Virus record (IMG/VR): IMGVR_UViG_3300045996_001403
Coordinates: 1-59,962 of that record
Length of the DNA stretch: 59,962 nt
Strand: one strand, 5' to 3'
DNA from: a virus
Taxonomy: Duplodnaviria; Caudoviricetes
Below are positions 573-59,473 of this stretch, piece after piece. A model generated the notes under the pieces. It searched no databases. It was not told the origin of the DNA and worked only from the letters and a program-made list of their open reading frames with translations. The translations under genes and the position numbers were made by a program. How positions within the stretch are numbered: the stretch's first letter is position 1; each line of letters begins with the position of its first letter.

Positions 573-2217
573 GCCGGGTTGCCAGAACTGTGGATGGAAG
601 CCGAAGGCCGGCGCGCTCTGGCCTACCGAAGGGCCGATGGCGGTCCAGTGGATCGAGGACAACCTCGTCTTTGCCGAAGGCGACTGGTACGGCCAGCCGT
701 TCCGTTGCCGTTCGGACCAGAAGCGGTTCCTGTACCGGTGGTACGAGTACTGCGGCGGCTGCGGCCAGTGGCACTACGACGAGGCACTCCGCGGCGCCGC
801 GACGGGCGACGGAAAGACTGCGTTCGTTGCGGCGATCGTCGCCCTGGAGTTCGCGGGTCCGCCGCAACGCAAGGATGCCGACGGCACGGTTCGGGGCATC
901 GCCCCGTCGTCGCCCAACATCCCGATTGCCGCCGCGAGCTTCGAGCAGGCAGACCTGCTCTACGGCGCGTTCGCGCTGATGCTCGGCGGCCGTGACCAGA
1001 TCATGAAGGAAGCCCCGCTGTGCGGCTACTTCGAGGTCTACGACACGGTCACGGAGTTCGGTGACGGCAGGCCCGGCAAGGTCCACCGGGTTGCCGCTGT
1101 CGCAGGCACGAACGAAGGTGGCCTGCCGCACCTGTTCGTGCGCGACGAGCTGCACGAGTGGGGCGATGTCGGGTCGAACAAGGCCCGCGTGGCGACGGTC
1201 ATCGGCAAGTCCACGAAGAAGCGCAAGACGCTGCGTGGTTCCGGCCGGATTCTGTCGCTGTCCACTGCGGGGTTCGACAAGGATCACTCGCTGCTGGGCG
1301 CGATGTACAAGCGCGGCAAGGCGGCGGAGAAAAAGCCGGATCTCGCGCCTCGCTTCCTGTTCGACTGGCAGGAGGCCCCGGACGGTCTCGACTACACCAA
1401 GCGCGAGCACCGGGAGATCGCGGTCAAGGCCGCGTCCGCCGCCGCGGGAAAGCAGTGGTCGATCCCCGACAGGGTGGCGGAGTACGGCAAGCCCGACTGT
1501 CCGCCCCATGAGTGGATTCGCTACTACGCGAACCGCTGGGTTGACATGGTCGAGGAGTCTTGGCTCAAGGACCACCCCGGAGCATGGGGCGCCTGCGAGG
1601 GCGAGTGGGACTCGTCGAACGAGAACCCGTTCGTGCTCGCGGTGGACATGGCGCTCAAGCAAGACTCGGTCGCGGTGGATCGCTGCGAGCTTTTGCCGGA
1701 CGGCAGGATCGCCGTCACCACGAAAGTGTGGCGAGCGCAGGGTACGGCCGATGGTCGGATCAACCATGCCGAGGTGTGGGATTACATCAAGGCGAACGCG
1801 AAAGGGTTGGGGTTCCGCGGCGTCGTCTACGATCCCCGGTTCTTCGAGGTTCCCGCAAGGATGCTGGAGGACGAGGGCATCCTCGCCATCCAGTTCGACC
1901 AGTCCCCGGCGCGCATGACCCCTGCGTGCGGCGAGACGTTCAAGATGATCATCGCCACGCAGATCGTGCACAGCGGCGAGCGGGACTTGACCGACCATGT
2001 TGTCGCCGCGGTGCAACGTCCACAGGAGCGCGGTGGCTTCACCCTGTCCAAGGGGCGCAGCAAGCGCCACATCGACGCGTGTGTGGCCATGTGCATGGGC
2101 GTGTGGGTGCTTCTCGAAGTGCCCGCTCCCGCAGCCCCCTCGCCGGTCACCGTCAACACCGCCGAGGTGTCCACGTCGCACGACATGTTCCGGCCGACCG
2201 AACGACTCAACCTGTAG
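511..2217 (+). CDS. terL: Terminase large subunit
   Basis: Walker A-like 'ATGDGKT', Walker B 'FVRDELHEW', 'LSLSTAG' coupling motif, nuclease motifs 'LAVDMA', 'VVYDP', 'HIDACVA'; exact start uncertain. Confidence 0.93.
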   Translation: MAWMAATTPKRKTRGSRSRSEPGCQNCGWKPKAGALWPTEGPMAVQWIEDNLVFAEGDWYGQPFRCRSDQKRFLYRWYEYCGGCGQWHYDEALRGAATGDGKTAFVAAIVALEFAGPPQRKDADGTVRGIAPSSPNIPIAAASFEQADLLYGAFALMLGGRDQIMKEAPLCGYFEVYDTVTEFGDGRPGKVHRVAAVAGTNEGGLPHLFVRDELHEWGDVGSNKARVATVIGKSTKKRKTLRGSGRILSLSTAGFDKDHSLLGAMYKRGKAAEKKPDLAPRFLFDWQEAPDGLDYTKREHREIAVKAASAAAGKQWSIPDRVAEYGKPDCPPHEWIRYYANRWVDMVEESWLKDHPGAWGACEGEWDSSNENPFVLAVDMALKQDSVAVDRCELLPDGRIAVTTKVWRAQGTADGRINHAEVWDYIKANAKGLGFRGVVYDPRFFEVPARMLEDEGILAIQFDQSPARMTPACGETFKMIIATQIVHSGERDLTDHVVAAVQRPQERGGFTLSKGRSKRHIDACVAMCMGVWVLLEVPAPAAPSPVTVNTAEVSTSHDMFRPTERLNL

Positions 2218-25861: not shown

Positions 25862-25905
25862 ACTGGGGGTCAAGGGGTCGCAGGTTCAAATCCTGTCGTC
25901 CCGAC
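25862..25905 (+). mobile_element. attP: attP core: 3' half of host tRNA-Pro(GGG)
   Basis: ACTGGGGGTCAAGGGGTCGCAGGTTCAAATCCTGTCGTCCCGAC = anticodon loop, T-arm and 3' acceptor strand; 5' half absent; next to the integrase. Confidence 0.9.
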
Positions 25906-25922
25906 GGTCGAAGTAGCAGGTC

Positions 25923-26001: not shown

Positions 26002-27579
26002 CTAGCGGGCGCGGGCGAACCGCAGCACCTGGCCGCCCCCGCCAGTCGCCTCGGCACGCTCGGCAAGAAGCCGGTCCAACACCGTCACCGCTGACCGCGG
26101 GGACATCCCCAACCGGGCGTCCAACGCGGACTCCCACGCCCCGGTCAGCCCTTCCATCAACCGCTCCCGCATCTCCCGCGTGACGTGGCTGTAGCGCCCC
26201 TGCACCGAGCCGTCCGCGTGTCCGAGGCGTTCGTCCATCAACACGCCGGGCGTGCCCAGCTCCAGCATCAGCGTCTTGTGCGAGTGGCGCAGACCGTGTG
26301 GGGTCAGGCCCGGCGCGAGCGGCACCCAGCAGGCATCGGCCTTGCCGTGCGCGCCCTTGCCCCGCACCGGCACGCCGGGCCACGGTTCTCCCACCACCGG
26401 CACCGGACGCTCCGGGTGCGGCGCCTTCGCCGGGTACAGCCCGGTCGCGGCAGGCTGGAACACCCACGTCGCGAACCCGGACCGACGCCAGTGCGGGGCG
26501 GTCTCGCTCTTCGCGACGCCACGTACGAATCCCGACTCGGACACCGCGACCTCCACCCGCTCGCGCTTCTCCGGAGCGACCTTCTCCGGGTGGTTGAGCA
26601 CGTTGGACACCGTGCCGGTCGACACCCCGGCCAGGCGCGCCACGTCTGCGAGCGTCGCCCCCGAACGACGGGTGGTCTGTCGTGCGGCGTGGGCACCGCG
26701 GAACGCATAGACGTGGCCGTGGCAGTCGCATGTTTCGGGGCGGACGCGGGCGACGTGGTCGGAGAGCAGCCGGTCCAGGAAAGCGGGGGTGTCGATGGTG
26801 CGGTAGGAGTCGTCCTTCGGAGGCACACGGGTCATCACCCCGGTGGAAAGTTCGTACAGCTGCCACTCCACGCGTACCGAGCGCGGTCGGACATACCGGG
26901 TCTCCAGGCCTACGAGTTCTCCCCAGCGCGTCCCCGTGTAGTAGGTCGCGACCAGCAGCGCGAACTCGTCGTCCCGACCGGTGAGCAGTGCCGCCCGTTC
27001 TGCCAGCAGCAGCGCCCCGAGCGGATCCGTGATGGTCTTCTCCGGACTGCGCGCGGCGGACCTTCCTGCAACCTTGCCCCGGCCCCGACGTTTCGCGGCG
27101 GGATTGCGTTCGATCAAGTTGTACGGCGGTTCCGTGGCGTCTTGGAGCATAAGGTGCAAGATCTTGCGCCACTGTCGGACGCTGCTGTCCGCGTAGTCGG
27201 CTCGCCGCTCTTTCGCCTCCCAGGCGGCCACGTCAGACTCTGCGATGGCGTCAAGGTCCATCTCCCCAAAGTGGGGCAGCAAGTGCGCCTCGATGGCAAG
27301 CCGATAGCCCTCCATGGTGGATTCCGCCAGATGTTGAGCGGCATACCATTGAGAGGCAAAGGCATCGAATCGAACTTTGACGTTGACTACGACAGGTCGT
27401 TTGCCGTTGCGGACCTCGGCCTCTTTGTCGTTCGCGGCCTTCTCGGCTTCCCGCTTGGTTCGGAACCTGATTGTCCCGCCGTGCTCATCGGTGACCGTGC
27501 CGTAGTTACCGGGGCCGATCTTGTACCGGCCCCGGTAGTATGCCCCGTCCTTGCCGCCGCGTTTCTCGGCGTACCCCAC
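26002..27579 (-). CDS. int: Tyrosine integrase with internal LacI-type HTH
   Basis: Catalytic TGTRWGE, PPK, HGLRH, RLGH, RY motifs; insert 'ATLADVARLAGVSTGTVSNVLNHPEKVAPEKRERVEVAVSESGF'. Confidence 0.93.
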   Translation of the reverse strand: MGYAEKRGGKDGAYYRGRYKIGPGNYGTVTDEHGGTIRFRTKREAEKAANDKEAEVRNGKRPVVVNVKVRFDAFASQWYAAQHLAESTMEGYRLAIEAHLLPHFGEMDLDAIAESDVAAWEAKERRADYADSSVRQWRKILHLMLQDATEPPYNLIERNPAAKRRGRGKVAGRSAARSPEKTITDPLGALLLAERAALLTGRDDEFALLVATYYTGTRWGELVGLETRYVRPRSVRVEWQLYELSTGVMTRVPPKDDSYRTIDTPAFLDRLLSDHVARVRPETCDCHGHVYAFRGAHAARQTTRRSGATLADVARLAGVSTGTVSNVLNHPEKVAPEKRERVEVAVSESGFVRGVAKSETAPHWRRSGFATWVFQPAATGLYPAKAPHPERPVPVVGEPWPGVPVRGKGAHGKADACWVPLAPGLTPHGLRHSHKTLMLELGTPGVLMDERLGHADGSVQGRYSHVTREMRERLMEGLTGAWESALDARLGMSPRSAVTVLDRLLAERAEATGGGGQVLRFARAR

Positions 27580-44864: not shown

Positions 44865-45434
44865 ATGACCGCAGCCACCGCCCGTACCGTCACCACCTCG
44901 GTCCGCCGTGCCCTCCGCTCCGCTGGCCTGCTGGACGCGGTGGTCAAGACCGGCACCCGCCAGGACGGAGACACCTGGGTAACCAACGTCGAGACCGTCA
45001 CCAAGGACCAGGCCGCGGTCGTGGCGGACGACCTGCGCGCCACCTTCCCGGCGGTGGAGGTCCGGGGCGGCATGAACTTCTTCGAGGTCCGGATCACCCA
45101 GCCGGTCGCCACCCCCGAGCCCGCGCCGGTCGTCGAGGAGCAGCCCGCAGCCAAGCCGGTCAAGCGGTGGAAGTCCCGCGACGAGATCCAGGCGGAGCGG
45201 GACAGCCTGGACATGGAACAGGTCAACGAGCTGGTGGACTTCCTGTTCACCGCGTGGCGGGGGCACCGGCTCACGAGCGCCGCCAAGGCGGTCCGCCTGG
45301 AGCACGCCCGGGACCAGGTCCTGCTGGAGTGGGTGGACCACTACCTGAGCGAGCGCATCGGCAGCGTCTCGCCGGTCTACCTCGCGCCGATCCCCGGCAC
45401 CCGCAACTACCTGCTCGACAAGGTCTACGCCTGA
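44865..45434 (+). CDS. Hypothetical protein, first gene of the cassette
   Basis: RBS GGAGGA, strongly GC3-biased codons. Confidence 0.7.
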   Translation: MTAATARTVTTSVRRALRSAGLLDAVVKTGTRQDGDTWVTNVETVTKDQAAVVADDLRATFPAVEVRGGMNFFEVRITQPVATPEPAPVVEEQPAAKPVKRWKSRDEIQAERDSLDMEQVNELVDFLFTAWRGHRLTSAAKAVRLEHARDQVLLEWVDHYLSERIGSVSPVYLAPIPGTRNYLLDKVYA

Positions 45435-45444
45435 TCAACCTCAC

Positions 45445-45505
45445 GGCGAAACGGGACTCCGGTCCCGTCTCCCGGATTGGCATTCCGGGACTGACGAGCC
45501 TGCCG
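45445..45505 (+). ncRNA. Type II hammerhead ribozyme with loop-I pseudoknot
   Basis: GGC-GAAA-CGGGAC(TCCG)GTCCCG-TC-TCCCGGA(TTGGCAT)TCCGGGA-CTGACGA-GCC-TGCCG: all core residues and three stems; GUC cleavage after 45469. Confidence 0.92.
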
Positions 45506-45521
45506 CACCAGAGGAGACGAC

Positions 45522-46196
45522 ATGACCGCCGCCCTGTTGGACTCGCACATCACCGCCACCGTCCGCCTCGCCGCAACCCACCTCACCAACGGCAAGCTCC
45601 CCGTCCCCGCCCGCATCCGCGAGCAGTTCGCCCCCGACGCCAAGATCCGCGTCGACCTCATCGACGCGTTCGGCGGCTCCCGCAGCCTCGGCACCTTCAC
45701 CGCGCGGCAGACCGGCATCACCCTCACCGGCATCACCTGGCCCGAGGACATGCGCGCCGACGAGCGCGTCGAGCTGAGCGTCATGCGCGGCGGCGACTCC
45801 CGGTGGATCGGCGTCTACATCGACACCACCCCCGCCCCGGCCGAGCCCCCGAAGCCCGAGTCCGTGCAGGGCGCCGTGCAGATCCTGTCCCGCGAGATCG
45901 TCGCCACCGCCCAGATCAACGGCGGCACCCGCGTTGTCGAACTGTCCATCATCGGGAACACCGACGGGCGCCGGACCTGGACCACCTACCGGACCGCCGC
46001 CTACGACTCCAACCACCCCAACCCCTACCCCTCGGTGGGCATCGGCCCCGCCGACACCCCGGAGCAGATCGAGGCCGCCCGCGCCGACGCGAGCACCCTG
46101 CTCGACCCCAGCGGCGACCCGCAGTGCTGCGACTGCTGGTCTGGTTGGGACCCCTACTGCGGCAAGACCGGCTGCTGGGGCGTCTACCGCCCCTGA
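45522..46196 (+). CDS. Hypothetical protein with Cys-rich C-terminus
   Basis: RBS GAGGAG just 3' of the ribozyme; 'QCCDCW..YC...C'. Confidence 0.7.
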   Translation: MTAALLDSHITATVRLAATHLTNGKLPVPARIREQFAPDAKIRVDLIDAFGGSRSLGTFTARQTGITLTGITWPEDMRADERVELSVMRGGDSRWIGVYIDTTPAPAEPPKPESVQGAVQILSREIVATAQINGGTRVVELSIIGNTDGRRTWTTYRTAAYDSNHPNPYPSVGIGPADTPEQIEAARADASTLLDPSGDPQCCDCWSGWDPYCGKTGCWGVYRP

Positions 46197-49559: not shown

Positions 49560-50452
49560 CCAGCCCGAAGTGGCCAGTCGTCGGAGCCGAGGTCGTCGTG
49601 TGGTGCGAGGTCGACGGTGAGAAGTACCACCATGTGCGAGCCGGTCACGTCTACTGGGTCGGCCCGTCTTCGTTCACCGTCGTCCCCGGGGACGACCTGC
49701 ACTACGCCATTGACACCTGCTCCGCGTGGCAGGGATACGGACGGAACGCGGTGACATGGTGGGTGGTGCCAGCTGGCTCGGGCCGGGCCGCTGCCGCGTG
49801 GGCGGCCCAGGACAACCGGCGTCGCGCCGACAAGGCGGTGTGGGCGGTGTCCGACTGGATCAAGGCCCGGAGCAGGGAGACGCGTGAGCGCGCCATCCAG
49901 GCTCTACAGGCGATCGAGATGGACAGGGAAGACATGCTAATCGAAACCGAGGAGGCGTCGTGACCGAGCCCCCTTCCGCTCTCCTGGAAAGAGCGGCGGC
50001 CCTGATCCAGCAGCGGGCGGAGGCGATTCGCTCTCCGGAGTACTGGGACCGCGAGGTGCGCGGCGCGGACATGAGCGAGGCAGGCGCGGCTTGGGCGAAG
50101 TTGACTTCCCCCTCTGTCGCCCCTCCTCTCGTGGAGTGGCTGCGACGGTCGGCCGGTGACATCGAGGTTCACGTTGCCGCATGGCGGTCCACCAACGGGT
50201 ATCACCCGCCGCGCAGCGAGGAGGCGGTGGCACGGCTGGTTGAGCACCACTTCGGCCCCGCTCTCGCCTTCGCCCGCACCATCCTGGGTGAGCATCCCGC
50301 CCACGACTGGGTGTTCCCGTACGACGCCCATCCCGGTGCCCGGGAGTGCCGGACGTGCGGGGCGCACGACGACGCGGCGCCCTGCCGCTACCCGCATTGA
50401 ACTGCGAAAACTGCTAGAATCCACTGTGTACACCACGACCCGAGAGGCCATC

Positions 50453-50710
50453 ATGCTGAGCGTTCTGGACCGCCACCCCGCCGTGCAGGAGTTCGCGGCC
50501 ATGTTCGACTTCGGGCACCTGCCCGAGGGTCTGCCGCGGCGGGTGAGCGCCACGTTCCACGAGCAGGCGCAGGCCCTGATCGACCTCCTGCCGGACGGCC
50601 CCGGCCTGACGCGGGCCCTGCACCGCCTGTGGGAGTCGAAGAACGAGGCCGTGTTCCTCGCCGTGCGCACGGCGAAGGCCACTGCCACCGTGTCGGACCC
50701 GCGCGACTGA
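50453..50710 (+). CDS. Small helical-hairpin phage protein
   Basis: 'FDFGHLPEG..R.VS..F...LPDGP.LT..L..L.ESK..AV'; TAGAAT -10 and RBS upstream. Confidence 0.65.
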   Translation: MLSVLDRHPAVQEFAAMFDFGHLPEGLPRRVSATFHEQAQALIDLLPDGPGLTRALHRLWESKNEAVFLAVRTAKATATVSDPRD

Positions 50711-51885
50711 CCCCCTGTGTACGCCGCCACCTTGGAGGGCTCGATGTTCGACCCTGGCATGCCCTGCACCTGCCCCGGATGTGATGTGGTCGTGGACCTG
50801 AACGACATGGTCCGCGACCCACTCGACCCGACACGGGTCGGCCTGGTGTGCCCCTCGTGCGCAACCGAGCGTCGGCAGGAAGCGGACCCCGCCGCCGCGT
50901 ACATGCCCGGAGGTGAGGGGTGAGCCCCGAAGAGATCCTGACCGTCCTCAACGGCCTGGAGCCGGTGAACACGGACGACTGGGTGTTCTGCGTCATCACG
51001 CGCGGCTCCCGCGAGCACTACAACTCCCGTACCGGTCAGATCGAACCGCGCGACGAAGAGTCATGGTGGCCGTTCGAGAAGGGGGAGGTCGTCGTCCTCG
51101 ACGACGAGTACGGTCGTGAGCCGTTTGGAGAGGAGCGCAAGCCTTCGAAGTGGGACCTGGAGGTGGAGCACTTCGACTCGCTGGCGGACGCCGTTGCGTG
51201 TCGGGAGGCCGTGCTGGCGGGCACGTGGAAGGCGGACGGGTGAGCACCTCTGACCTCTCCTCTCGTCTCCTCGCAGCAATCGAAGAGACGGAACGACTGG
51301 CGGCGATCGCCAAAAGCAACACCGAGGGCGTATGGGGTCCAAGCACGTGGGCCGCGGCTGCGGCGTCGATCGCGCTCTACGACAAGTCCGGCAAGCTCGC
51401 GGTCGGCAGCGTGTCGCACATCGAGCACCACGACCCGGCCTCCGTCCTCCGTCGCTGCGCCGCCGACCGCCGACTCGTGAAGCGCTGCGCCGACGTGCTC
51501 TCCGCGAAGGGCTGGGAGTACGACGACACCCCGGACCTTACCCGGCGGGCTCTTGAGGATTTGGCCTCCGCCTACGGCCTCTCCGACCACCAGGAGGGCG
51601 AGGCATGAGCACCGTGGACATCGGAGAGTGCCGCGGGGACGAGGGCGACTACATCGCCGTCTACTACCAGCACGACTTTCGTCGTCACCAACATGCCGAG
51701 ACCCTGAACGAGGCTGTCGCTGGCCTGTGGTGGGGGAGTGATCAGAACCTGCTCTACCCGGTGGCCGTGCTCGGTCCGAGCGGAGAGGTTATCCACGGCG
51801 AAGGTACGGGCGACGGCGATGTGTACGACGCGATCGCCGCTTATGACGCCCGCATTGGCCGTCCCGACCACCAGGAGGGCGAAGA

Positions 51886-52695
51886 GTGAGCGACGCCGAG
51901 GCGACCATCGCGAGACGGGACCACCTCCACCCCGATGTGGAGGCGGAAGGCGCAGGCAAGGCAACGGCGGAGGCGTTGAAGTGCGACGAGGTCTGGACTG
52001 AGTGGCGCTTGGTGGGGCGACCCGAATCCGGCGGGCCAGTGTACGACCGTGTCGCGGTCGAGCCGAACGAGGTCGAGGAAATGCTCGACACCTGGGAGCG
52101 AATCAAGTCCGGCGAACTTGCCTGGCAGAACGCGAGCCTCAGCTCAAGGTTGGCCGTGGCGCTTCGCAGCGACTGGCAGGCCCCGAAGGTCGACCAGTTC
52201 GAACGCTGGCTGCCGATACCCGGGTTCGAAGGGCTCTACGTCGTAAGCGATCTCGGACGGGTCGCCTCCCTCAGACGCCGGTTGGTGATGACGCCGGGAG
52301 AAGTTGCCTATGGGTACGCGATGGGTATCAACCTGACGAAGAACGGCAGGACGGTGACGCACAACGTGCACAAGCTCGTCATGCTCGCGTTCGTGGGGCC
52401 CAGACCTAAGGGTATGCAGATCTGTCACAACGACGGCGACCCGAAGAACAACGCGCTGAGCAACCTGAGGTACGACACCCCTCAGGGGAACGCCGAAGAC
52501 AGCAAGCGACACGGCACGTCGTTCCACCTGAACAAGCGGCACTGCCCCAACGGGCATCTGTACGACGAGGCCAACACCTACATCAACAGCAAGGGTCACC
52601 GCTGTTGCAGGGAGTGCCAACGCACACAGGCGCGCCGTAAGTACCACCGTCGCAAGGCGGAGGGGCGTCCGCGCGTACGTCGTCCAGCAGCATGA
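51886..52695 (+). CDS. NUMOD4-HNH homing endonuclease with extra N-terminal domain
   Basis: 'ERWLPIPGFEGLYVVSDLGRV', 'VHKLVMLAFVGP..CHNDGDPKNN.LSNL', 'HCPNGH..NT..CREC'. Confidence 0.88.
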   Translation: MSDAEATIARRDHLHPDVEAEGAGKATAEALKCDEVWTEWRLVGRPESGGPVYDRVAVEPNEVEEMLDTWERIKSGELAWQNASLSSRLAVALRSDWQAPKVDQFERWLPIPGFEGLYVVSDLGRVASLRRRLVMTPGEVAYGYAMGINLTKNGRTVTHNVHKLVMLAFVGPRPKGMQICHNDGDPKNNALSNLRYDTPQGNAEDSKRHGTSFHLNKRHCPNGHLYDEANTYINSKGHRCCRECQRTQARRKYHRRKAEGRPRVRRPAA

Positions 52696-52775
52696 AGGCT
52701 CTGACCTGCTGACTTGCTTTAGCTTGTACAGAGGTCATGATTACCCGTACAGCCACAGTGGACCGGGAGGCATCC

Positions 52776-53705
52776 GTGCAGGACTTCGTTCCCTCGTGCG
52801 TCGTCTGTGGCGCGGTCTCCGGGCGGCCCCTGTGTGGCAGCGAACGGGCCCTCACCGGGTGCCTCGGGAAGCTCCTCCGCGAGTTGGGCCGCATCACCGA
52901 CCTGGTGGAGGAGCTGGACACCACCATCGCCCGCCTGGACAAGACCGGCGGTGGCTCGGTCGGGTACGTCAGCAACGGCGCCGACGAGAAGCCCTTGCCG
53001 ATCAACATGGCCGCGACCGAGCCCAAGCTTCTCCTGCGCGACCGGCTGATCTCGTGGTGTCGGGACCTGTGGGAGACCAACGCCGCCCGCAACGAGGACG
53101 GCTCGGTGCCCCCGCTGGACCTCCGGTTCGGTGTGGCCCCCGCCGCCCTGTGGCTGCTGCGCCACCCCTCGTGGATCGCCTCCCACGAAGCCGTCTACGA
53201 GCTGTACGACGAAGTCATGGAGACGACCCGCCTCGCGTGGCGCGCAGTGGACACCGCCCCCGACCGGGTCTACATCGGCACCTGCTCCGCCCCGCTCGCC
53301 GCGGAGTCCGGAACGGAGCAGTGTGCGGAGGAGCTGTACGCCCGCGACGGAGACTGGGAGAAGCGCTGCCCGGGATGCGGAACCATCCACGACGTGCGGG
53401 AGCGCCAGGCCGCTCTTGCCGCCGCCGTAGAGCACCAGTACGTGTCCCCGGGCTTCCTGGTGGGCCTCGTCCGCGACCGGGGAGACCGGCTCACCACGGC
53501 CATGCTGCGCAGCCTTCTGCGCCGGGGCAGGATCGCCGCTTTCGTCCACCTCGACGAGAACCACCCGGGCGCGGGGGTGCTGGACCGGCATGGCTGGCTG
53601 GTCCGCCCATGGGTGTCCGGCCAGGACCCGGTCGACGTCCGCCTGTACCGGGTGGGGCAGGTGCTGGACGCGATCACCAACCGGTATTCGAGGCAGGCCG
53701 CGTAA
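52776..53705 (+). CDS. Putative late-gene activator (Zn ribbon plus C-terminal wHTH)
   Basis: 'YIGTC..C..ELYA..CPGCG', 'LYRVGQVLD'; last early gene before a consensus promoter; RBS GGAGG (upstream ATG at 52737 also possible). Confidence 0.55.
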   Translation: MQDFVPSCVVCGAVSGRPLCGSERALTGCLGKLLRELGRITDLVEELDTTIARLDKTGGGSVGYVSNGADEKPLPINMAATEPKLLLRDRLISWCRDLWETNAARNEDGSVPPLDLRFGVAPAALWLLRHPSWIASHEAVYELYDEVMETTRLAWRAVDTAPDRVYIGTCSAPLAAESGTEQCAEELYARDGDWEKRCPGCGTIHDVRERQAALAAAVEHQYVSPGFLVGLVRDRGDRLTTAMLRSLLRRGRIAAFVHLDENHPGAGVLDRHGWLVRPWVSGQDPVDVRLYRVGQVLDAITNRYSRQAA

Positions 53706-53713
53706 CCCCCGAG

Positions 53714-53742
53714 TTGACACGGCGAAAGTGAACGCCTAGATT
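53714..53742 (+). promoter_or_regulatory. Consensus housekeeping-sigma promoter TTGACA-17-TAGATT
   Basis: Read directly; precedes the non-coding leader and tRNA. Confidence 0.75.
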
Positions 53743-53982
53743 TCCTAGTGTCGGGTTTCATGTCGAGCGACACCGCTTGCGAAGCCCGCGTCGGAACCTT
53801 GCAGACGGGAGCCGCCCCCGGGCCGCTCCCGTCTTCGCGTTCCGACCCTTCTCGTCCACTGCCTGCCAGACACACGTCTCCGCGGTCTCCTGACCGACTC
53901 ATGACACACCTGGGCACGCGCAGTGGCACCACCCGCTCGACGTGCGGAGGCCCCGGCTTCCGGCGCGCCACGTCGAGCACAC

Positions 53983-54066
53983 GGAAGATGGCGGCGCTGG
54001 TGCGCCAAACCGGTTGCTAGCCGGTCGCCGGGTTAATGCCCGAGGGTTCGACTCCTTCATCTTCCT
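53983..54066 (+). tRNA. Non-canonical tRNA-Ser(GCT) with 8/4 (or 7/5) fold and long variable arm
   Basis: GGAAGATG/CATCTTCC acceptor; GGCGC-TGGT-GCGCC D-arm; ACCGG-TTGCTAG-CCGGT anticodon arm; CGGG..CCCG variable arm; AGGG-TTCGACT-CCTT T-arm. Confidence 0.85.
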
Positions 54067-54493
54067 CGGAGGCGCGTCCATCACGGGCGCGCCTACCCAA
54101 AACTGCGGGGTGCGAGAGCCCCGCGGATCCGGCCACGACCCCTTGAGCGCTGGCGGCGGCGATGCGCTCGGGGTCGTGGCCCCCTAACGTTCGGGAGGTG
54201 CGGTGAGCGCGGCGCGCAAGCGAAGGAAGCTCAGTAAGTCCCACCTCACATGGGAGAACCCATACACGGGCGAGAAGCAGTACACCTCGGGCAAGGGTGC
54301 GGTGTTCGCAGCCCGCTTCGATCGCCTGTGGAACAAGCGCAAGCTGTCCGATCCGTCCTACCTGACGGGACGGTCGTTGGCGAATGCTCCGGTGAAGTAC
54401 TCGCGCTGCCCCACCTGCGCAGGAGCGCCGCATCACCCGCCGTCGTTCTTCATGGCACGCTGAGCCTCGCCGCCCGACTCTGAGGGGGTGTCC

Positions 54494-54721
54494 ATGTCCC
54501 TCGCCTCCGCTCTCGGCACGCCCCCGACCCGTCGTCGGGACTGCAAGGTCAAGGACATCGTCGACCAGCTCGCCCCCGAGGACCGCGAGATCCTGAACCG
54601 AGCCTGGAGCACGCACTCCGCCGACGCCATCGCCAAGGCCTTGACCGAGGATGGCCATCCTGTCGCCGCGTCTACTGTGACCCGGCATCGTCTGGGTCGG
54701 TGTAGCTGTGCCGCTCGGTGA
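54494..54721 (+). CDS. Small Cys/His HTH-like protein coupled to the phosphoesterase
   Basis: 'DCKV..IAKAL..TVTRHRLGRCSC'. Confidence 0.6.
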   Translation: MSLASALGTPPTRRRDCKVKDIVDQLAPEDREILNRAWSTHSADAIAKALTEDGHPVAASTVTRHRLGRCSCAAR

Positions 54722-55904
54722 GCGCCTGGCGCAGCCGGTGCAGCCGGACGCCCGCCGCCCCCGTCGAGGTCATCCTCGCGGTGACGAGCTGGACGTCCGC
54801 TACGACGCCGCCAAGGGCGTGGTGGAAGTCGAAGGCCGCGAGACCGTGGTGCCGATCGGCGCCGAAGAGGCTCAGTGGCGCGCGGACATCACCCGCGTCA
54901 CGGGCTTCGCCATCCCCGACCACCGCCGGGTGGAACTGACCGACGTCCGCCGCTGGGGAGACCCGGCGGAGCCGTACGTGTACTGCCGCTACCGCATCGT
55001 GGACCGCGAGTCCGAGGGCGAGCGGCTGGACGTCGAAGACCTGGTGTGCGCGGTCAAGGCCGTGCGACGCAAGACCGCCCCGGTACCCGTGGGTACCGAG
55101 CGGGCGCTGATCGTCCCCTGGGCCGATCTCCAGGTGGGCAAGGTCGGCTCCCGAGGTGACTCCGAAGACCTCGTGAACCGGGTGCTAGAGAAGCTCGACG
55201 CCCTGGAGGCCCACGCCCGCGCGGTGAAGGCCGACACGGCGTACCTGATCGACGTGGGCGACTGCGTCGAGTCGTTCGAGAACACCCCGCAACAGGGCTT
55301 CACCAACGACCTCAGCTTCCCCGAACAGCTGCGCCTCGCGCGCCGGTTGTTCACCGAGGCCGCTCTCCGCCTGTCGAAGCTCCACTCCCGGGTGGTGTGC
55401 GCCGCGGTGCCGTCCAACCACGGGCGCTGGAGGCGCGGCAAGGACGCCCTCGGCAAGCCGGGGGATGACTACGGCATCGAGACCCTGACGGCGGTGGCGG
55501 ACGCGTTCGCGCTCAACCCCGACGCGCTCGGTCACGTGTCCTTCGTGGTGCCGGGCGTGTGGGAGGAGTCGTTGACGCTGGACGTGTACGGCACCCTGCT
55601 GGGTGTGGTGCACGGCCACCAGGTCAACCGCCCCGAACGCCTCGCCTCCTGGTGGGCGGGACAGGCCCACGGCGGCCAGCCGGTCGCGGACGCGGACATT
55701 CTGCTGAGTGGTCACTTCCACCACCTGTGGGTCACGGCAACGGGCAGGTCGGCGCACACGGGCCGTTCGAAGTGGCTCATGCAGGCGCCCACGCTCGACA
55801 ACGGGTCGGACTGGTACCGGCTCCGCTCGGGCCACGACTCCGACCCGGCCCTGATGGTGTTCACCGTGGACGCCAACGGCTGGGACGGCCTCAAGCTCCT
55901 CTAG
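54708..55904 (+). CDS. Calcineurin-like metallophosphoesterase
   Basis: 'ADLQVGK', 'VGDCVE', 'SNHG', 'HGHQ', 'GHFHH'. Confidence 0.85.
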   Translation: MPLGERLAQPVQPDARRPRRGHPRGDELDVRYDAAKGVVEVEGRETVVPIGAEEAQWRADITRVTGFAIPDHRRVELTDVRRWGDPAEPYVYCRYRIVDRESEGERLDVEDLVCAVKAVRRKTAPVPVGTERALIVPWADLQVGKVGSRGDSEDLVNRVLEKLDALEAHARAVKADTAYLIDVGDCVESFENTPQQGFTNDLSFPEQLRLARRLFTEAALRLSKLHSRVVCAAVPSNHGRWRRGKDALGKPGDDYGIETLTAVADAFALNPDALGHVSFVVPGVWEESLTLDVYGTLLGVVHGHQVNRPERLASWWAGQAHGGQPVADADILLSGHFHHLWVTATGRSAHTGRSKWLMQAPTLDNGSDWYRLRSGHDSDPALMVFTVDANGWDGLKLL

Positions 55905-56600
55905 GACCGGAGGCCCCGCCGTGCGCCTGTCCATCAGCCTGCTCGGTACCGAGCTACTGGCCATCGAGTGGGGCGAGCCCGTGCTGGAACTGGTGCAGCC
56001 CGAGGCCGACCACATGGGCGGCTCGTTCGACGTGCCGTTCGGGTTCACCTCGCCGCCTGCGATCGCGCCCCGTCCGGCGTGGTCCCCGACCGAGGAGGAC
56101 TGATGGCCGCCGCCTATCGGTGCGAAGCGTGCGAAAGCATCCCCGATTGGGACTTGGAGCGTTACGGTGACGCCGTCGCCTCCTGGGCCTGCCACGCTCA
56201 CTTGCCTGGCGTGCTGCGCGACTTGCAGCGCAAGTTCGAGATCACCGAGATCTCGGTGAAGCCTTCCCGCCGCTCGATTCGGGTGTACCGGCGCGACGAT
56301 GGGCAGTGGTGCTCGAAGTGCTTCCGCTGCCGTGAGTGGCTCACCAAGGGTGAGTCGACGTGGGCGGCAGCGTCCGTCGTGGCCTATTTCCACGCCGTCC
56401 TGTGGCACGCCACGGTGGAGGTCGCCCGGTGACCGCCTTCCTCGCCGCCCCCGAGCACCGCGTGGTTCTCTACACCGGCTCCCCGTTCCCCGTGGAGGCC
56501 CGCCCACCCCTGCCTCGCGCCCCGGAGACGTGGTGCGACCACCGGCCATCGTGGGGCGCCCACGGACTGAGGTTCGTCGAGCCGACGAGCGAGGTTCCCG

Positions 56601-57284
56601 ATGACGGACTACAGCCTCTGGCCCGACGCTGACGGTCCCGCGTCCGGCTCTGCTGACGCGTCGGTGGTGTTGGGCACCGAGTTCTACGTCACCGCCCAGG
56701 CGTGGTTGAAGGCGTTGACGTTCTGGCGTGCCGACACGACCATCACCGGCCCTGTGACGGGTCGGGTGTACACGCGTGTCGACGCCCCCGCAACCAATGA
56801 TCCCCTCGCGGGCAGTGACATCAGCTTCGCCCTGTCCGGCACGGGCGAGCAGGTGGCCCTGCTGGACGCTCCGGTGGAGCTGACCGTGAACCAGCGCTAC
56901 GTCGCGGCCTGCCTGTTCCCTTCCGGCTACTCCGCCACGGGCGGCTACTGGCGCAGCGGTGACGGTTCCTCGGGGATCGTGAACGGCCCGCTTCGGGCAC
57001 CATCGGAATCCACCGCCACCGCGAACGCCCAGGGGCTCTACCTGTACACCACCACGCTCACCTTCCCCCTGAACGCCTCTCCGAACGGCGCCAGCTACTG
57101 GGTCGGCGTCATCGTCACCGACGAGGAACCCGGAGAGGGTGGTCCGGAGTCGCCGGAGACGCCGCCGGACGAGACGTTCGCGGCCGGTCCGCTGCGCACG
57201 CCGTGGACCGTGTCCCGCGTCCACTCCACGTGGTCCGCCGGCCCCTTGTCCGCCCCGTGGTCCGCTGGCCGGCTCCGCACCTAG
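56601..57284 (+). CDS. DUF4082-like beta-sandwich protein
   Basis: 'LGTEFYV..LTFWR', 'PVELTVNQRYVA', 'FP...SYWVGV'. Confidence 0.6.
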   Translation: MTDYSLWPDADGPASGSADASVVLGTEFYVTAQAWLKALTFWRADTTITGPVTGRVYTRVDAPATNDPLAGSDISFALSGTGEQVALLDAPVELTVNQRYVAACLFPSGYSATGGYWRSGDGSSGIVNGPLRAPSESTATANAQGLYLYTTTLTFPLNASPNGASYWVGVIVTDEEPGEGGPESPETPPDETFAAGPLRTPWTVSRVHSTWSAGPLSAPWSAGRLRT

Positions 57285-57293
57285 GAGGCCTCG

Positions 57294-57617
57294 GTGGACG
57301 TTTACGTGGACCGCGACTCCAAGCAGTACATCGGGGTGACGGTGGCCTACTCGTTGCTCTCGGGCGGCACCAGTTCGCCTACGGGCTACACGGTGACCGT
57401 GGCGGTGGTGCCTTCGGGCACGCGCCCCGCTTCCGGCGACTTCAAGACGGCCTCGTGGTCGTCGGGTAGCAACGGCTACGTGGCAGGCCTGCTGGTGGGT
57501 CCTGGTTCGTCCGTGGGCGGCCTGACGGTCGGTGCCCGGTACGACGTGTACGCCAAGGTGTCTGCGGACGCTGAGACGCCTGTCATCAAGAGTCCGGATA
57601 CGCTGGTGGTCCGCTGA
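57294..57617 (+). CDS. Small beta-rich putative virion protein
   Basis: RBS AGGAGG; 'GLLVGPG..YDVYAKV..ETPV'. Confidence 0.6.
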   Translation: MDVYVDRDSKQYIGVTVAYSLLSGGTSSPTGYTVTVAVVPSGTRPASGDFKTASWSSGSNGYVAGLLVGPGSSVGGLTVGARYDVYAKVSADAETPVIKSPDTLVVR

Positions 57618-57840
57618 TGGCTGCGACCTGTCCGGCAACGTTGGCGCACACCCATGGCACCACGACGTGTCGCCTGCCTACTGGTCACGATGGCGGGCCA
57701 CACGAAGGCGTCTGCCACGTTTGCCGCGAAGACGGCGCGGACCCGGAGGACAGCATCCTCACATGGGCCGCCATGCAAGGCGACTGGCTCACCGGGCCGG
57801 CTCGCTGACCCCGCACACCCCTTCCGCCGAGGAGTGCACG

Positions 57841-59473
57841 ATGGATCTGTTGCAGTTCACCGCCATGGACTACTGGCTGGGCTTCGGGTCGCTCGTCGCG
57901 CTGACGATCGACCGGTGGGCGCGGGGCGACTGGATGCCCGTCCACAGCGAGCACGTTCCCACGGACTTCGCCTCGCTCACCATCAACAACGTCCCCATCG
58001 AAGTGCTGTACGGGCCGGACGCGGTGCGTCACCCGTACAAGCTGAGCGAGCCGGACGAGACCCCACCGGCGCTGCTCGAACAGACAGCGATCTTCACCCC
58101 GCCTCCGGCCGGCTACTTCAACGCCGACCTCGCGCTCTGGAAGGCTGCCGACCGCCTCGCAGCCCGAACCGCCCAGCCCGATCCGCTCCGGATCATCACC
58201 GGCCTCTGACGCGGAGGTGGCCCATGTGGGAGCGTCGTTGGTCGGCCTTCCTCGCCGCCTGCACCGTCGGGTTCGCCGTGCTGGAGTGGCTGGGCTTGCG
58301 TTCCCGCAACCGGGGCGGCCCGAACGGCACCCTGACCCACTTCGTGCGCCGGGCGCTCCACATCGACCCCGTGGGGCCGCGCCACCGGGCGGGCAAGGCG
58401 GCGCTGGTGGCCTTCCTCGCCTGGCTGGCCATCCACTTCCTCACCGGTCGCTGGCCGTCGTAACCAAGATCGAACTATCGGTGAACGCGCAGGTCGCACC
58501 CGTACCCGCAAGTAACAAGTGGGGTGGCCATGCTCAGCACCGAGGACCGCATCGCCAACCTCCTCCTCGCCATCGCCAACGCGGACAGCCTCATCACCTG
58601 GGCACTCGACACGGACGACCAAGCGCTGTTCACCGCCCAGGTCGAACGCCGCCGCCAGTGCCGCGCTGTCCTCTCCCGCCTGCAGGAGTCACCGCCGTGA
58701 CCGACGCCTTCTTCGGGCTGCCCGCCTGCCGCTGGACGGGCACCAACCGCGACGAGATGCGCGAGTTCACCCTCCTCCCGGGCCGCAACGTCCAGGCCCT
58801 GTTCGCCACCGATGGCGCCCACGGCATCCACACCGCCCGCGGTCCTCAGCCGCTGTGGATCGGGGACGTGGTGGTCCGCAATGAGCGCGACCAATTCCTG
58901 ATCGTCCCGGCCGACGTCGTCGCAGCCGTCAACGCCTGAGCCTCTACCTGTTCAACCGTGGAGCCGCCGCCATGAGCACCGAAGACCGGACATCCCGCAA
59001 GCTTCGCATCCGCTCCGACGGGACGGGTCCGGGTACCACGATCGAGGCCGTGCCGCAGGATGGCTCCGCTCCGGTCCGCCTGGACAACGTCCTGTCGGCC
59101 ACCTGGACCGCCCGCTGGGACGAGCTGGCCACCGCAACCCTGACGTTCGTCGATGTCGAGGTGGACGTTACCGGCGAGGAGAAGCAGTGAGCGGCGTCTT
59201 CTTCGGACTGCCAGCCTTTCGCCGGTAGGGCGCCGACCACACTGGACCGAGTGCCTTCGTCACCCCACTCGGAACGGAGAGCCCGTGATGCGTCGAAGTG
59301 AACGCCTCTACTTTCGGTACATCAACCCGTGGTGGTTACGGTTCGGGATGCTGCTCAAGCGGATTGGCTGCCGCATCGTGCTGGGCAAGGGGCACAGGCT
59401 GGTCGACCCGCAGCCCTACATGGACGAGGGGCTCCTCGTCTGCCATGGCTGCGGCCACACGGTCCTGTTCTAA
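57841..59473 (+). other. Cluster of small hypothetical genes (e.g. 57841-58209, 58224-58463 membrane, 58698-58939, 58972-59190)
   Basis: Co-oriented short ORFs, most with RBSs. Confidence 0.55.

What the first reader, a model, noticed from the sequence alone, without database searches (positions are those of the whole stretch)
53983..54066. tRNA-Sec-like, 8/4-fold tRNA with a serine anticodon
Seen: possible 8-bp acceptor and 4-bp T-stem, 5-bp D-stem with a 4-nt UGGU loop, no U8/A14, long variable arm, GCU anticodon, U discriminator, no encoded CCA. G1-C, G2-C, A3-U and the long arm fit SerRS recognition. 8/4 'allo-tRNA'-type RNAs are a described but rare class. A 7/5 fold (GAGGG/CCUUC) is also possible. 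Inference: a nuclease-resistant substitute tRNA or a decoy against tRNA-targeting defence.
Basis: partly seen in the sequence, partly recalled or inferred. Interest (0 to 1): 0.78.

Follow-up and report, generated by a model that had tools for sequence, protein, structure and literature searches.

The report
Phage serine tRNA with 8/4 fold
This is a real serine tRNA gene (anticodon GCU) in a soil actinomycete phage, built on the unusual selenocysteine-tRNA-like "8/4" cloverleaf that has already been described for some phage and bacterial serine tRNAs, so it is an interesting but not new kind of molecule.

Summary
Window 53983-54066 (+) is an intact 84-nt tRNA with anticodon GCU, an 8-bp acceptor, a 2-nt connector, a 5-bp D stem with a UGGU tetraloop, a 17-nt variable arm, a 4-bp T stem and U73. 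CCA is not encoded. ARAGORN calls it tRNA-Ser. Rfam reports no tRNA match at gathering thresholds, and its best clan hit is tRNA-Sec at 42.2 bits, below the cut-off of 47.

It belongs to the published (8/4) tRNA-Ser / allo-tRNA class (Mukai et al., NAR 45:2776). In phage relatives with the same D-arm layout, position 8 covaries with the base that a 7/5 fold would give to the T stem: 16 of 17 pair, in four pair types. The 7/5 pair forms in only 5 of 17.

This copy, and its GCU-anticodon clade, can draw both folds. 8/4 is therefore favoured at about 75%, not proven.

The nearest relative is 90.7% identical and lies in an unrelated phage contig. None of its eight differences breaks a helix.

tRNA-dependent lysogeny is rejected, because attP matches tRNA-Pro(GGG). 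A comparison with a candidate host genome shows no sign of codon compensation. The "decoy / nuclease-resistant" idea is untested.

Verdict: new member of a known kind.

The parts
53983..54066 (+). Whole tRNA-Ser(GCU) gene, 84 nt including discriminator U73; CCA not encoded
   Evidence: ARAGORN; Rfam tRNA-Sec 42.2 bits; model R1 71.3 bits; sequence read
53983..53990 (+). Acceptor stem, 5' strand (G1-G8); G8 is the extra eighth pair partner
   Evidence: Pairs listed; P(8-76)=0.84 in the ensemble; 8:65 covaries in relatives
53991..53992 (+). Two-nucleotide connector G9 C10 (would be three, G8-C10, under a 7/5 fold)
53993..54006 (+). D arm: 5-bp stem GGCGC/GCGCC with UGGU tetraloop
   Evidence: compensatory C13-G22 to U-A in L268; same UGGU loop in the tRNA-Sec of genome G001
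54009..54025 (+). Anticodon arm: 5-bp stem, loop UUGCUAG, anticodon GCU at 54016-54018, G at position 38
54026..54042 (+). Long variable arm (17 nt; stem C47-G60 to U51.G56, loop UAAU); G60 is the base that a 7/5 fold would instead pair with C76
54043..54057 (+). T arm: 4-bp stem AGGG/CCUU, loop UUCGACU
54058..54065 (+). Acceptor stem, 3' strand (C76-C83)
53714..53742 (+). Promoter-like site TTGACA-17-TAGATT, about 240 nt upstream, just after the stop of ORF 52737-53705; a possible start of the tRNA transcript (inferred)
   Evidence: 1 site found, shuffles mean 0.0
53935..53978 (+). 10-bp inverted repeat ending 4 nt before the tRNA 5' end (possible processing or structural element, inferred)
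   Evidence: I3
54070..54094 (+). G+C-rich hairpin starting 4 nt after the discriminator (possible 3' end or terminator element without a T run, inferred)
   Evidence: I4

Best explanation
The gene encodes a working elongator serine tRNA that reads AGC/AGU. It belongs to the (8/4) tRNA-Ser / (8/4) allo-tRNA class: a 12-bp acceptor/T branch split 8+4 instead of 7+5, a 2-nt connector, and a tRNA-Sec-like long D stem with a tetraloop.

**Inferred life cycle.**
1. It is transcribed from the phage genome, possibly from the promoter-like site at 53714-53742.
2. Host RNases trim it.
3. The host CCA-adding enzyme supplies CCA.
4. Host SerRS serylates it through the long variable arm and the G1-C72, G2-C71, A3-U70 acceptor pairs. 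The class paper states that U73 is tolerated.
5. EF-Tu accepts it because the branch is 12 bp, not the 13 bp of tRNA-Sec.

**What is shown and what is inferred.**
- Shown here: the gene's anatomy, its class membership by architecture and homology, conservation of all its helices in relatives, and its sporadic, horizontally moved distribution.
- Inferred: expression, charging and use in translation. The class paper showed these experimentally only for other allo-tRNAs in E. coli.

The benefit to the phage is not established. My best guess is that it keeps AGY decoding supplied during infection, rather than compensating for codon bias.
For: **Anatomy.** All 27 pairs of the 8/4 cloverleaf are standard pairs.

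**Energies.**
- 8/4: -39.3 kcal/mol.
- 9/3: -38.9 kcal/mol.
- 7/5: -37.3 kcal/mol.
- Ensemble P(G8-C76) = 0.84 against P(G60-C76) = 0.15.

**Class description.** Mukai et al. (PMC5389517; abstract, sections 13-14 and passages read) describe:
- an 8/4 branch, a long D stem with a tetraloop, a long V arm and G73 or U73;
- discovery of the class as false positives of the Rfam tRNA-Sec model;
- (8/4) tRNA-Ser in bacteriophages, proteobacteria and rumen Clostridia;
- 8/4 and 9/3 allo-tRNAs that are processed, aminoacylated and delivered by EF-Tu in E. coli.

**Covariation in relatives from an IMG/VR scan that left positions 8, 49 and 65 free.**
- Of 17 distinct tRNAs chosen only for a D stem of 5 bp or more and a 4-5-nt loop, 8:65 pairs in 16 (GC, AU, UA, CG) and 49:65 pairs in 5.
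- Of the other 33, 8:65 pairs in 10 and 49:65 in 29.
- On alignment A1 the 8:65 pair reads GC 11, AU 9, UA 3, CG 1, other 1, while the 7/5 pair forms in 11 of 25. A1 has 25 rows: the window, those 17, and 7 rows I added by eye after seeing that they pair.

**Closest relative.** L268:4446-4529 is 90.7% identical over 86 nt. As read, its 8 differences are:
- one compensatory D-stem pair (C-G to U-A);
- one in the D loop;
- one at A25;
- three in the V loop;
- the discriminator.
None breaks a helix. The flanking proteins are unrelated.

**Other GCU relatives with the same layout.** They occur in metagenome contigs and in tRNA clusters or arrays. They also occur in Actinomycetes genomes: G123/L292 (GCU), G079/L290 (CGA) and G002/L103 (UGA).
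Against: - For this sequence the decisive pair is ambiguous, because C76 can pair with G8 or with G60.
- In the 13 GCU-anticodon relatives, 8:65 pairs in 13 of 13 but the 7/5 pair also forms in 12 of 13. The window's own clade therefore does not separate the folds. The case for 8/4 rests on architecture, on the UGA/CGA relatives, on two GCU sequences with U.C at 49:65 (L262, L292), and on a 2 kcal/mol difference.
- In one GCU sub-family (L226, L278, L273, L254, L238) the outer T-stem pair is C.C or C.U.
- There is no expression, CCA-addition or charging evidence for this gene.
- U73 is unique among the 13 GCU relatives (G 11, U 1, A 1), so serylation efficiency is uncertain.
- None of 15 loci around related terminases carries any tRNA within the DNA fetched, at most 10 kb on each side. 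The gene is therefore dispensable for this phage lineage.
- AGY makes up 25.7% of serine codons in the phage against 35.8% in a 100-kb sample of candidate-host genome G001. Codon compensation does not explain it.
Confidence: 0.7

Rival explanations
1. It is an ordinary 7/5 serine tRNA. G60-C76 is the fifth T-stem pair and G8 is unpaired. The molecule merely has an unusual D arm (3-nt connector, 5-bp stem, tetraloop).
For: - ARAGORN draws exactly this fold.
- GAGGG/CCUUC is a legal 5-bp stem.
- In 12 of 13 GCU-type relatives the 49:65 pair can form, including A-U when 8:65 is A-U.
- The energy gap to 8/4 is only 2 kcal/mol.
Against: - A 3-nt connector before a D stem that starts at position 11 is the tRNA-Sec/allo-tRNA register (8+2), not the canonical one (7+2).
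- In relatives with the same D-arm layout, 49:65 is a mismatch in 12 of 17 while 8:65 covaries.
- L262 and L292 (GCU) have U.C at 49:65.
- G60 has a competing partner, C47, in the variable stem (P = 0.78).
- No tRNA-clan family reaches its gathering score.
Confidence: 0.17
2. The non-canonical body (no U8/A14, Sec-like D arm, G38) makes it a substitute serine tRNA that escapes a host tRNA-targeting nuclease or other defence, or acts as a decoy for one. It concerns why the phage keeps the gene and is compatible with the best explanation.
For: - Published proposals hold that phage tRNAs counter tRNA-depleting defences. They also report that mycobacteriophages avoid the NGA serine tRNAs cleaved by VapC toxins and carry tRNA-Ser(gct) instead (PMC10264068, passages; titles and abstracts).
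- There is no codon-compensation signal.
- The gene is sporadic and horizontally moved.
- The anticodon loop differs from the tRNA-Ser(GCU) of candidate host G001 at position 38, G instead of A.
- 8/4 serine tRNAs are concentrated in phage contigs and tRNA arrays.
Against: - No defence system or nuclease is identified.
- Nothing here tests cleavage.
- A GCU tRNA cannot rescue UCN codons, which make up about 74% of the phage's serine codons.
- A pure decoy needs no conserved serine anticodon or intact acceptor.
Confidence: 0.15
3. This is tRNA-dependent lysogeny. The phage would integrate into, and destroy, a host tRNA-Ser(GCU) gene, and would carry its own copy to complement the loss.
For: - The phage is temperate: a tyrosine integrase lies at 26002-27579.
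- It carries a single tRNA.
- The phenomenon is documented in actinobacteriophages (PMC10865867; abstract and section 10 read).
Against: - The attP candidate at 25862-25909, about 90 bp from the integrase stop, is 48 of 48 identical to G001 DNA at the 3' end of tRNA-Pro(GGG). About 44 nt lie in the gene and about 4 nt lie beyond it. It is 98% identical over 43-44 nt in G002 and 85% over 68 nt in G003.
- That core is long, rebuilds the tRNA, and belongs to a different isotype.
Confidence: 0.02
4. It is a passenger gene with little or no function in this phage. It would have been picked up recently from another phage's tRNA cluster, perhaps along with the nearby HNH endonuclease gene, and be on its way to loss.
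For: - It is absent from the DNA fetched around 15 related terminases.
- The nearest copy sits in an unrelated phage contig inside a cluster of Trp, Ser(CGA), Ser(GCU) and Asn tRNAs.
- An HNH endonuclease gene lies at 51886-52695.
- There is no codon-use rationale.
Against: - Not one helix is disrupted.
- All 8 differences from L268 are compensatory or unpaired.
- A promoter-like site lies upstream.
Confidence: 0.08
5. It has altered amino-acid identity. One version: the Sec-like D arm and 8-bp acceptor make Ser-tRNA(GCU) a substrate or sponge for the host selenocysteine synthase SelA. The other: U73 plus G34 C35 lets CysRS charge it. Either way AGC/AGU would occasionally be read as Sec or Cys.
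For: - Candidate host lineages G001 and G002 encode SelA (333 and 324 bits) and a bona fide tRNA-Sec (77.5 and 69.8 bits).
- The tRNA-Sec of G001 has the same UGGU D loop.
- A review states that allo-tRNAs contain SelA identity elements and, after engineering, give EF-Tu-dependent Sec insertion (PMC6267555, passage).
- U73 and GCA are given as the main CysRS determinants in PMC5389517.
Against: - The D stem has 5 bp, not 6.
- No experiment bears on it.
- The host is only inferred.
- U36 replaces A36 of the Cys anticodon.
- The closest relative has G73.
- Random Sec or Cys at serine codons would probably be harmful.
Confidence: 0.03

Closest known systems
[quoted passage not shown]
   Same: 8-bp acceptor plus 4-bp T stem; long D stem with a tetraloop; long variable arm; G73 or U73; a serine anticodon; found in bacteriophages; picked up by the tRNA-Sec covariance model below threshold.
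   Different: - The host range named in the text I could read is bacteriophages, proteobacteria and rumen Clostridia. Here it is a high-G+C phage whose attP and terminase relatives point to Actinomycetes.
- It is a solitary gene rather than part of a tRNA cluster.
- The GCU anticodon clade keeps a base at position 49 that could also pair with 65.
- Whether GCU examples are in that paper's Figure 2 or supplements I could not see.
Bacterial tRNA-Sec (Rfam RF01852)
   Same: 8-bp acceptor, 2-nt connector, long D stem with a UGGU-type tetraloop, long variable arm, and charging by SerRS as the first step (the last point is established knowledge).
   Different: 12-bp rather than 13-bp acceptor/T branch (4-bp not 5-bp T stem); 5-bp not 6-bp D stem; anticodon GCU not UCA; 42.2 bits against a gathering score of 47.
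Canonical class II bacterial tRNA-Ser(GCU), for example that of genome G001 (L106:1598-1684)
   Same: Anticodon loop UUGCUA-, long variable arm, GG start of the acceptor, and the same codons read.
   Different: The canonical one has a 7/5 branch, U8, a 3-bp D stem with a loop of about 10 nt, G73 and A38. Model R1 scores host serine tRNAs at 36-43 bits, with a mismatch at pair 8.
selC* tRNA-Cys (same paper)
   Same: Sec-like 8/4 body and U73.
   Different: selC* has a GCA or UCA anticodon and an A51a bulge. Neither is present here.
Phage tRNAs used in tRNA-dependent lysogeny (Guerrero-Bustamante and Hatfull, mBio 2024; PMC10865867)
   Same: A temperate actinophage with a tyrosine integrase and a lone tRNA gene.
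   Different: attP here is a 48-bp core identical to G001 DNA at the 3' end of tRNA-Pro(GGG). It is not a short core in a tRNA-Ser gene.

Membership tests
(8/4) tRNA-Ser / (8/4) allo-tRNA | An eighth acceptor pair and a 4-bp T stem can form (12-bp branch split 8+4) | tested here: met
   G8-C76 plus A61-U75, G62.U74, G63-C73, G64-C72. The 8/4 cloverleaf is -39.3 kcal/mol and P(8-76) = 0.84.
(8/4) tRNA-Ser / (8/4) allo-tRNA | The 8/4 split is preferred over 7/5 (the 7/5 pair 49:65 is not the real one) | tested here: inconclusive
   In this sequence G60-C76 can also form. In relatives chosen by D-arm layout, 8:65 pairs in 16 of 17 and 49:65 in 5 of 17. In the 13 GCU relatives the figures are 13 of 13 against 12 of 13.
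(8/4) tRNA-Ser / (8/4) allo-tRNA | Long D stem with a tetraloop, as in tRNA-Sec | tested here: met
   GGCGC/GCGCC with UGGU. The stem is kept by a compensatory change in L268.
(8/4) tRNA-Ser / (8/4) allo-tRNA | Long variable arm and discriminator G73 or U73 (SerRS elements named by the paper) | tested here: met
   A 17-nt variable region with a 4-5-bp stem, and U73. The paper's text was read.
(8/4) tRNA-Ser / (8/4) allo-tRNA | Anticodon for a serine codon (this separates the tRNA-Ser members from other allo-tRNAs) | tested here: met
   GCU at 54016-54018.
(8/4) tRNA-Ser / (8/4) allo-tRNA | Serylated by SerRS and used by EF-Tu and the ribosome | not testable with these tools
   Shown by the authors only for other allo-tRNAs in E. 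coli.
tRNA-Sec (RF01852) | Reaches the family's gathering score | tested here: not met
   42.2 bits against 47. The genuine tRNA-Sec genes of G001 and G002 score 77.5 and 69.8 bits.
tRNA-Sec (RF01852) | UCA anticodon and a 13-bp (8/5) acceptor/T branch | tested here: not met
   The anticodon is GCU. There are 12 pairs at most, because C76 can serve only one helix.
Canonical 7/5 class II tRNA-Ser | U8, a 2-nt connector, a 3-4-bp D stem with a large loop (A14, G18 G19), and a match to the general tRNA model | tested here: not met
   Position 8 is G. Under 7/5 the connector is 3 nt. The D stem is 5 bp with a 4-nt loop. No tRNA-clan family reaches its gathering score in the window.
selC* tRNA-Cys | GCA or UCA anticodon with U73; A51a bulge in the modified 8/4 form | tested here: not met
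   U73 is present, but the anticodon is GCU and the T stem has no bulge.
tRNA of a tRNA-dependent lysogeny system | [quoted passage not shown] | tested here: not met
   attP 25862-25909 is 48 of 48 identical to G001 DNA at the 3' end of tRNA-Pro(GGG).

The most novel reading that the evidence does not exclude
The 8/4, tRNA-Sec-like body is itself the adaptation. Under this reading, phage-borne and array-borne 8/4 serine tRNAs such as this one are structurally orthogonal spare parts. SerRS, EF-Tu and the ribosome still accept them, but they escape host enzymes that read the canonical elbow and core (U8-A14, D loop, 7-bp acceptor), such as tRNA-cleaving toxins or defence nucleases. That would let the phage keep AGY decoding alive when host tRNA-Ser is attacked. 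A still bolder variant is that, in SelA-positive hosts, it engages the selenocysteine synthase.
Probability: 0.12. Interest if true: 0.75.

Novelty: new member of a known kind. Interest (0 to 1): 0.35.

Why it matters
- **Annotation.** 8/4 serine tRNAs are awkward for standard annotation. ARAGORN draws this one in the wrong register, reported no tRNA-Ser(GCU) at two GCU relatives (none at all in L257; none at the GCU site in L262), and Rfam's models stay below threshold. tRNA counts in phage and actinomycete genomes are probably too low for this class.
- **Range of the class.** This case and its relatives put the class in high-G+C phages and in tRNA arrays of Actinomycetes genomes. They also show that the same scaffold carries UGA, CGA and GCU anticodons. 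Two contigs carry nearly the same variable and T arms with different anticodons (L083 UGA; L227 and L282 GCU).
- **Open question.** If the architecture turned out to matter for escaping tRNA-targeting immunity, or for the selenocysteine machinery, it would give a natural test bed for why nearly all tRNAs keep the 7/5 split.
- **As it stands.** It is a well-documented extra example, not a new principle.

Tried and rejected
**Searches that led nowhere**
- Close relatives in the INPHARED phage collection. Megablast of 50000-58000 found nothing. blastn of the tRNA found only T-arm/acceptor matches of 24-28 nt to annotated tRNA-Ser genes of Pectobacterium, Salmonella and Klebsiella phages.
- The search for related loci with the upstream neighbour protein in IMG/VR found no relative.
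- A strict IMG/VR pattern for this acceptor, a UGGU loop and GCU gave 0 hits.
Nearly all were canonical U8 tRNA-Ser(GCU). By my reading only L201 shares the 2-nt connector, 5-bp stem and tetraloop layout.

**Ideas rejected**
- A 9/3 fold. The MFE draws G9.U75. However, 9:64 pairs in only 5 of 13 GCU relatives and 9 of 19 overall, and it is mostly a mismatch in the UGA group.
- Codon compensation. The host is only inferred from the attP identity and from terminase relatives in Crossiella, Prauserella and Micromonosporaceae.
- tRNA-dependent lysogeny.
- A second tRNA. ARAGORN's 'tRNA-Gly' at 641-720 has mismatched stems and lies inside the terminase ORF. I treat it as a false positive. Model R1 finds no other copy in the window.

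**Results that are blanks, not evidence**
- Expression: no RNA holder was listed.
- Contigs of four soil-metagenome runs were laid on the stretch. Two short contigs cover the tRNA: X2 record 12 over 53982-54051 with 10 other letters and 1 gap, and X3 record 19 over 53999-54068 with 5 other letters. The listing did not show which letters differ there, so nothing could be drawn on covariation.

**Tools and material not available**
- The look-up of encoding contigs is marked closed and was not called.
- Supplements were not read. The supplementary data of PMC5389517 (the basis of the fold predictions and the phage tRNA clusters in Fig. S2) and its Figure 2 may already list GCU or actinophage examples.
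- 'Not in print' rests only. Among papers holding 'allo-tRNA' and 'bacteriophage', those two searches found only PMC5389517 and one unrelated review.
Full report
**What the window is.** The window is a whole virus record of 59,962 bp with about 69% G+C. It encodes:
- a large terminase and a portal at the left end;
- a tyrosine integrase at 26002-27579 on the minus strand;
- near the finding, an HNH endonuclease (51886-52695), a PHROG 908 protein of unknown function (52737-53705) and a PHROG 284 exonuclease (54708-55904).

Terminase relatives at 63-79% identity are abundant in metagenomes. They also occur in genomes named Crossiella, Prauserella and Micromonosporaceae. Fifteen related loci were found in genomes mostly of Actinomycetota, with one each labelled Saccharibacteria and Planctomycetaceae. 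Known isolated phages are distant, with terminase identity of 21-28%.

**The observation.** The features are:
- an acceptor of eight pairs;
- G9 C10 as connector;
- a 5-bp D stem closed by UGGU;
- a 5-bp anticodon stem with loop UUGCUAG;
- a 17-nt variable region;
- a 4-bp T stem with loop UUCGACU;
- U as discriminator, and no encoded CCA.

ARAGORN reports tRNA-Ser(gct) but can only draw it as 7/5 with a three-base connector. Rfam reports no tRNA-clan match at gathering thresholds in the whole window. With relaxed thresholds the best clan member is tRNA-Sec at 42.2 bits, below its cut-off of 47. The fold is well beyond chance (z = -3.59; 0 of 200 shuffles). The stretch is intergenic by third-position G+C. 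A strong promoter-like site lies about 240 nt upstream, and hairpins hug both ends of the tRNA.

**What it is.** The description matches a published class. Mukai et al. (PMC5389517; abstract, sections 13 and 14 and several passages read) re-examined false positives of the Rfam tRNA-Sec model and found tRNAs with these properties:
- the 12-bp acceptor/T branch is split 8/4 or 9/3;
- the D stem is long with a tetraloop, the variable arm is long, and the discriminator is G73 or U73;
- 8/4 and 9/3 allo-tRNAs are processed, charged and used by EF-Tu in E. coli.

**Testing the fold with relatives.** I scanned IMG/VR with a T-loop/acceptor motif that leaves positions 8, 49 and 65 free (87 loci). Parsing gave 50 distinct tRNAs, which fall into two kinds.
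- Seventeen were selected only for a D stem of at least 5 bp and a loop of 4-5 nt.
  - They pair 8 with 65 in 16 cases, using G-C, A-U, U-A and C-G.
  - The pair that a 7/5 fold needs (49:65) is possible in only 5. It is A.C, A.A, U.U, G.G, C.C or C.U in the rest.
- The other 33 mostly have U8 and a 3-bp D stem with a 9-nt loop.
  - They pair 49:65 in 29 and 8:65 in 10.
  - Those ten also have short D loops by eye.

On an alignment of the window, the 17 and 7 rows added by eye (A1):
- the eighth acceptor pair reads GC 11, AU 9, UA 3, CG 1, other 1;
- the alternative pair forms in 11 of 25.

So the architecture that the window tRNA shares is an 8/4 architecture.

**The limits of that argument.** In the window tRNA, C76 can pair with G8 or with G60.
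- Nearest-neighbour energies favour 8/4 (-39.3) and 9/3 (-38.9) over 7/5 (-37.3 kcal/mol).
- The ensemble gives 0.84 for 8-76 against 0.15 for 60-76.
- A metagenome scan for GCU tRNAs with G38 (62 loci, 31 distinct strings) and a model search gave 12 GCU relatives with the same layout.
- In these 13 sequences 8:65 pairs in all 13 (GC 9, AU 4), but 49:65 also pairs in 12.
- Only L262, and a further copy in an Actinomycetes genome (L292), have U.C there.

The GCU clade thus keeps both options open. I rate 8/4 at roughly three in four for this molecule. That rests on the 8+2 register of the D stem, the UGA/CGA relatives, the competing C47-G60 variable-stem pair and the energies. The 9/3 drawing is not supported by relatives (9:64 pairs in 5 of 13).

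**Conservation and distribution.** The closest relative, L268:4446-4529, is 90.7% identical over 86 nt. As read from the alignment, its eight differences are a compensatory C-G to U-A in the D stem, single changes in the D loop and at A25, three in the variable loop, and the discriminator (G instead of U). None disrupts a helix.
- The proteins around it are unrelated to the window's (no tblastn hit).
- The contig is phage-like.
- There the gene sits in a cluster with tRNA-Ser(CGA), Asn and Trp.
- Other relatives lie next to a tRNA-Ser(CGA), or in arrays of up to 42 tRNAs.
- None of the 15 loci around related terminases has any tRNA in the DNA fetched, at most 10 kb on each side. In a prophage the tRNA would lie about 6.6 kb from that gene.

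The gene is therefore a sporadic, horizontally moved addition.

Model R1 was also run on Actinomycetes genomes.
- In Rhizocola hellebori it finds an 8/4-type tRNA-Ser(UGA) with U73 inside a 12-tRNA array (58.9 bits).
- Of 151 genomes sampled from the class of G001, 11 have a match at E <= 1e-8.
- Of the four best loci inspected, two are 8/4-type and two are canonical serine tRNAs with a mismatch at pair 8. The 8/4-type ones are L290, Ser(CGA) in a 16-tRNA array, and L292, Ser(GCU).

**Why the phage has it.** Three ideas were tested as far as sequence allows.
1. *tRNA-dependent lysogeny* (PMC10865867) is rejected.
   - The attP candidate at 25862-25909, next to the integrase stop, is 48 of 48 identical to G001 DNA at the 3' end of tRNA-Pro(GGG).
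   - It is nearly identical in two other Actinomycetes genomes.
   - That is a long, reconstituting core of another isotype.
2. *Codon compensation* is not supported.
   - AGC is 13.3 per 1000 codons and 22% of serine codons.
   - AGY is less used in the phage (191 of 744 serine codons) than in a 100-kb sample of G001 (411 of 1149).
   - The host is inferred, not known.
3. *Defence evasion* cannot be tested here.
   - It is in line with a published proposal for mycobacteriophages, which are said to avoid the NGA serine tRNAs cut by VapC toxins and to carry tRNA-Ser(gct) (PMC10264068, passage).
   - Against it, a GCU tRNA cannot read the roughly 74% of serine codons that are UCN.

One extra observation keeps a bolder reading alive. 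Both G001 and G002 have SelA and a genuine tRNA-Sec. The tRNA-Sec of G001 has the same UGGU D loop. A review states that allo-tRNAs carry SelA identity elements (PMC6267555). Nothing shows that this matters in nature.

**Verdict.** The finding is real and correctly described. It is a new member, in a high-G+C actinomycete phage and with a GCU anticodon, of an already described class. The most likely mechanism is plain: a SerRS-charged, EF-Tu-compatible serine isoacceptor for AGC/AGU with an 8/4 branch. The fold assignment for this particular copy and any role in counter-defence remain to be shown experimentally.

Noticed in passing
window 45444-45508 (+): Type II hammerhead ribozyme match above Rfam's gathering score (42.1 against 37 bits, E 3e-05). 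It lies in the gap between ORFs 44865-45434 and 45522-46196.
   Followed up: no
window 25862-25909 (+): Probable attP core, about 90 bp from the integrase stop. It is 48 of 48 identical to genome G001 (Crossiella sp. S99.2) DNA at the 3' end of tRNA-Pro(GGG). It is 98% identical over 43-44 nt in G002 and 85% over 68 nt in G003. In each of those genomes a second copy of the core lies 15-80 kb away on the same contig without a tRNA, as if other elements already sit at that site.
   Followed up: partly
window 26002-27579 (-): The 525-aa integrase ORF has a LacI-type helix-turn-helix hit (residues 309-352, E 2e-15) between its N-terminal SAM-like domain and its C-terminal catalytic domain. This is an unusual insertion or a mis-joined ORF.
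   Followed up: no
window 641-720 (+): ARAGORN reports an 80-nt 'tRNA-Gly(gcc)' with several mismatched stem pairs inside the terminase large-subunit ORF. It is very likely a false positive. The database copy of the terminase is 526 aa, so the true start is probably near 637, not 511.
   Followed up: partly
window 51886-52695 (+): HNH/NUMOD4 homing-endonuclease-like gene two genes upstream of the tRNA. It is a possible vehicle for local gene mobility.
   Followed up: no
L108 (G002:C18:150348-152283), about 1243-1843; L103 (G002:C8), about 767-1853: Rhizocola hellebori carries dense tRNA arrays with irregular members. One is a 70-nt tRNA-Ala(UGC) whose 4-bp D stem with a UGGU loop follows the acceptor with no connector. 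Another is an 8/4-type tRNA-Ser(UGA) with U73.
   Followed up: partly
L083:3260-3342 compared with L227:1388-1469 and L282:6381-6463: Contigs from different collections carry 8/4 serine tRNAs with nearly the same variable and T arms but different anticodons (UGA against GCU). This suggests anticodon switching on one scaffold.
   Followed up: no
L257:108-191 and L262:1515-1598: ARAGORN reported no tRNA-Ser(GCU) at either site: no tRNA at all in L257, and in L262 none at the GCU site although it lists five other tRNAs. Model R1 scores the two sequences at 42-45 bits. Standard annotation can miss the class.
   Followed up: partly
window 54202-54793: One soil-metagenome contig (run X1, record 2) matches both sides of this stretch but has 318 other letters in place of these 592 bases. 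The small ORFs just downstream of the tRNA look like a replaceable cassette among relatives.
   Followed up: no
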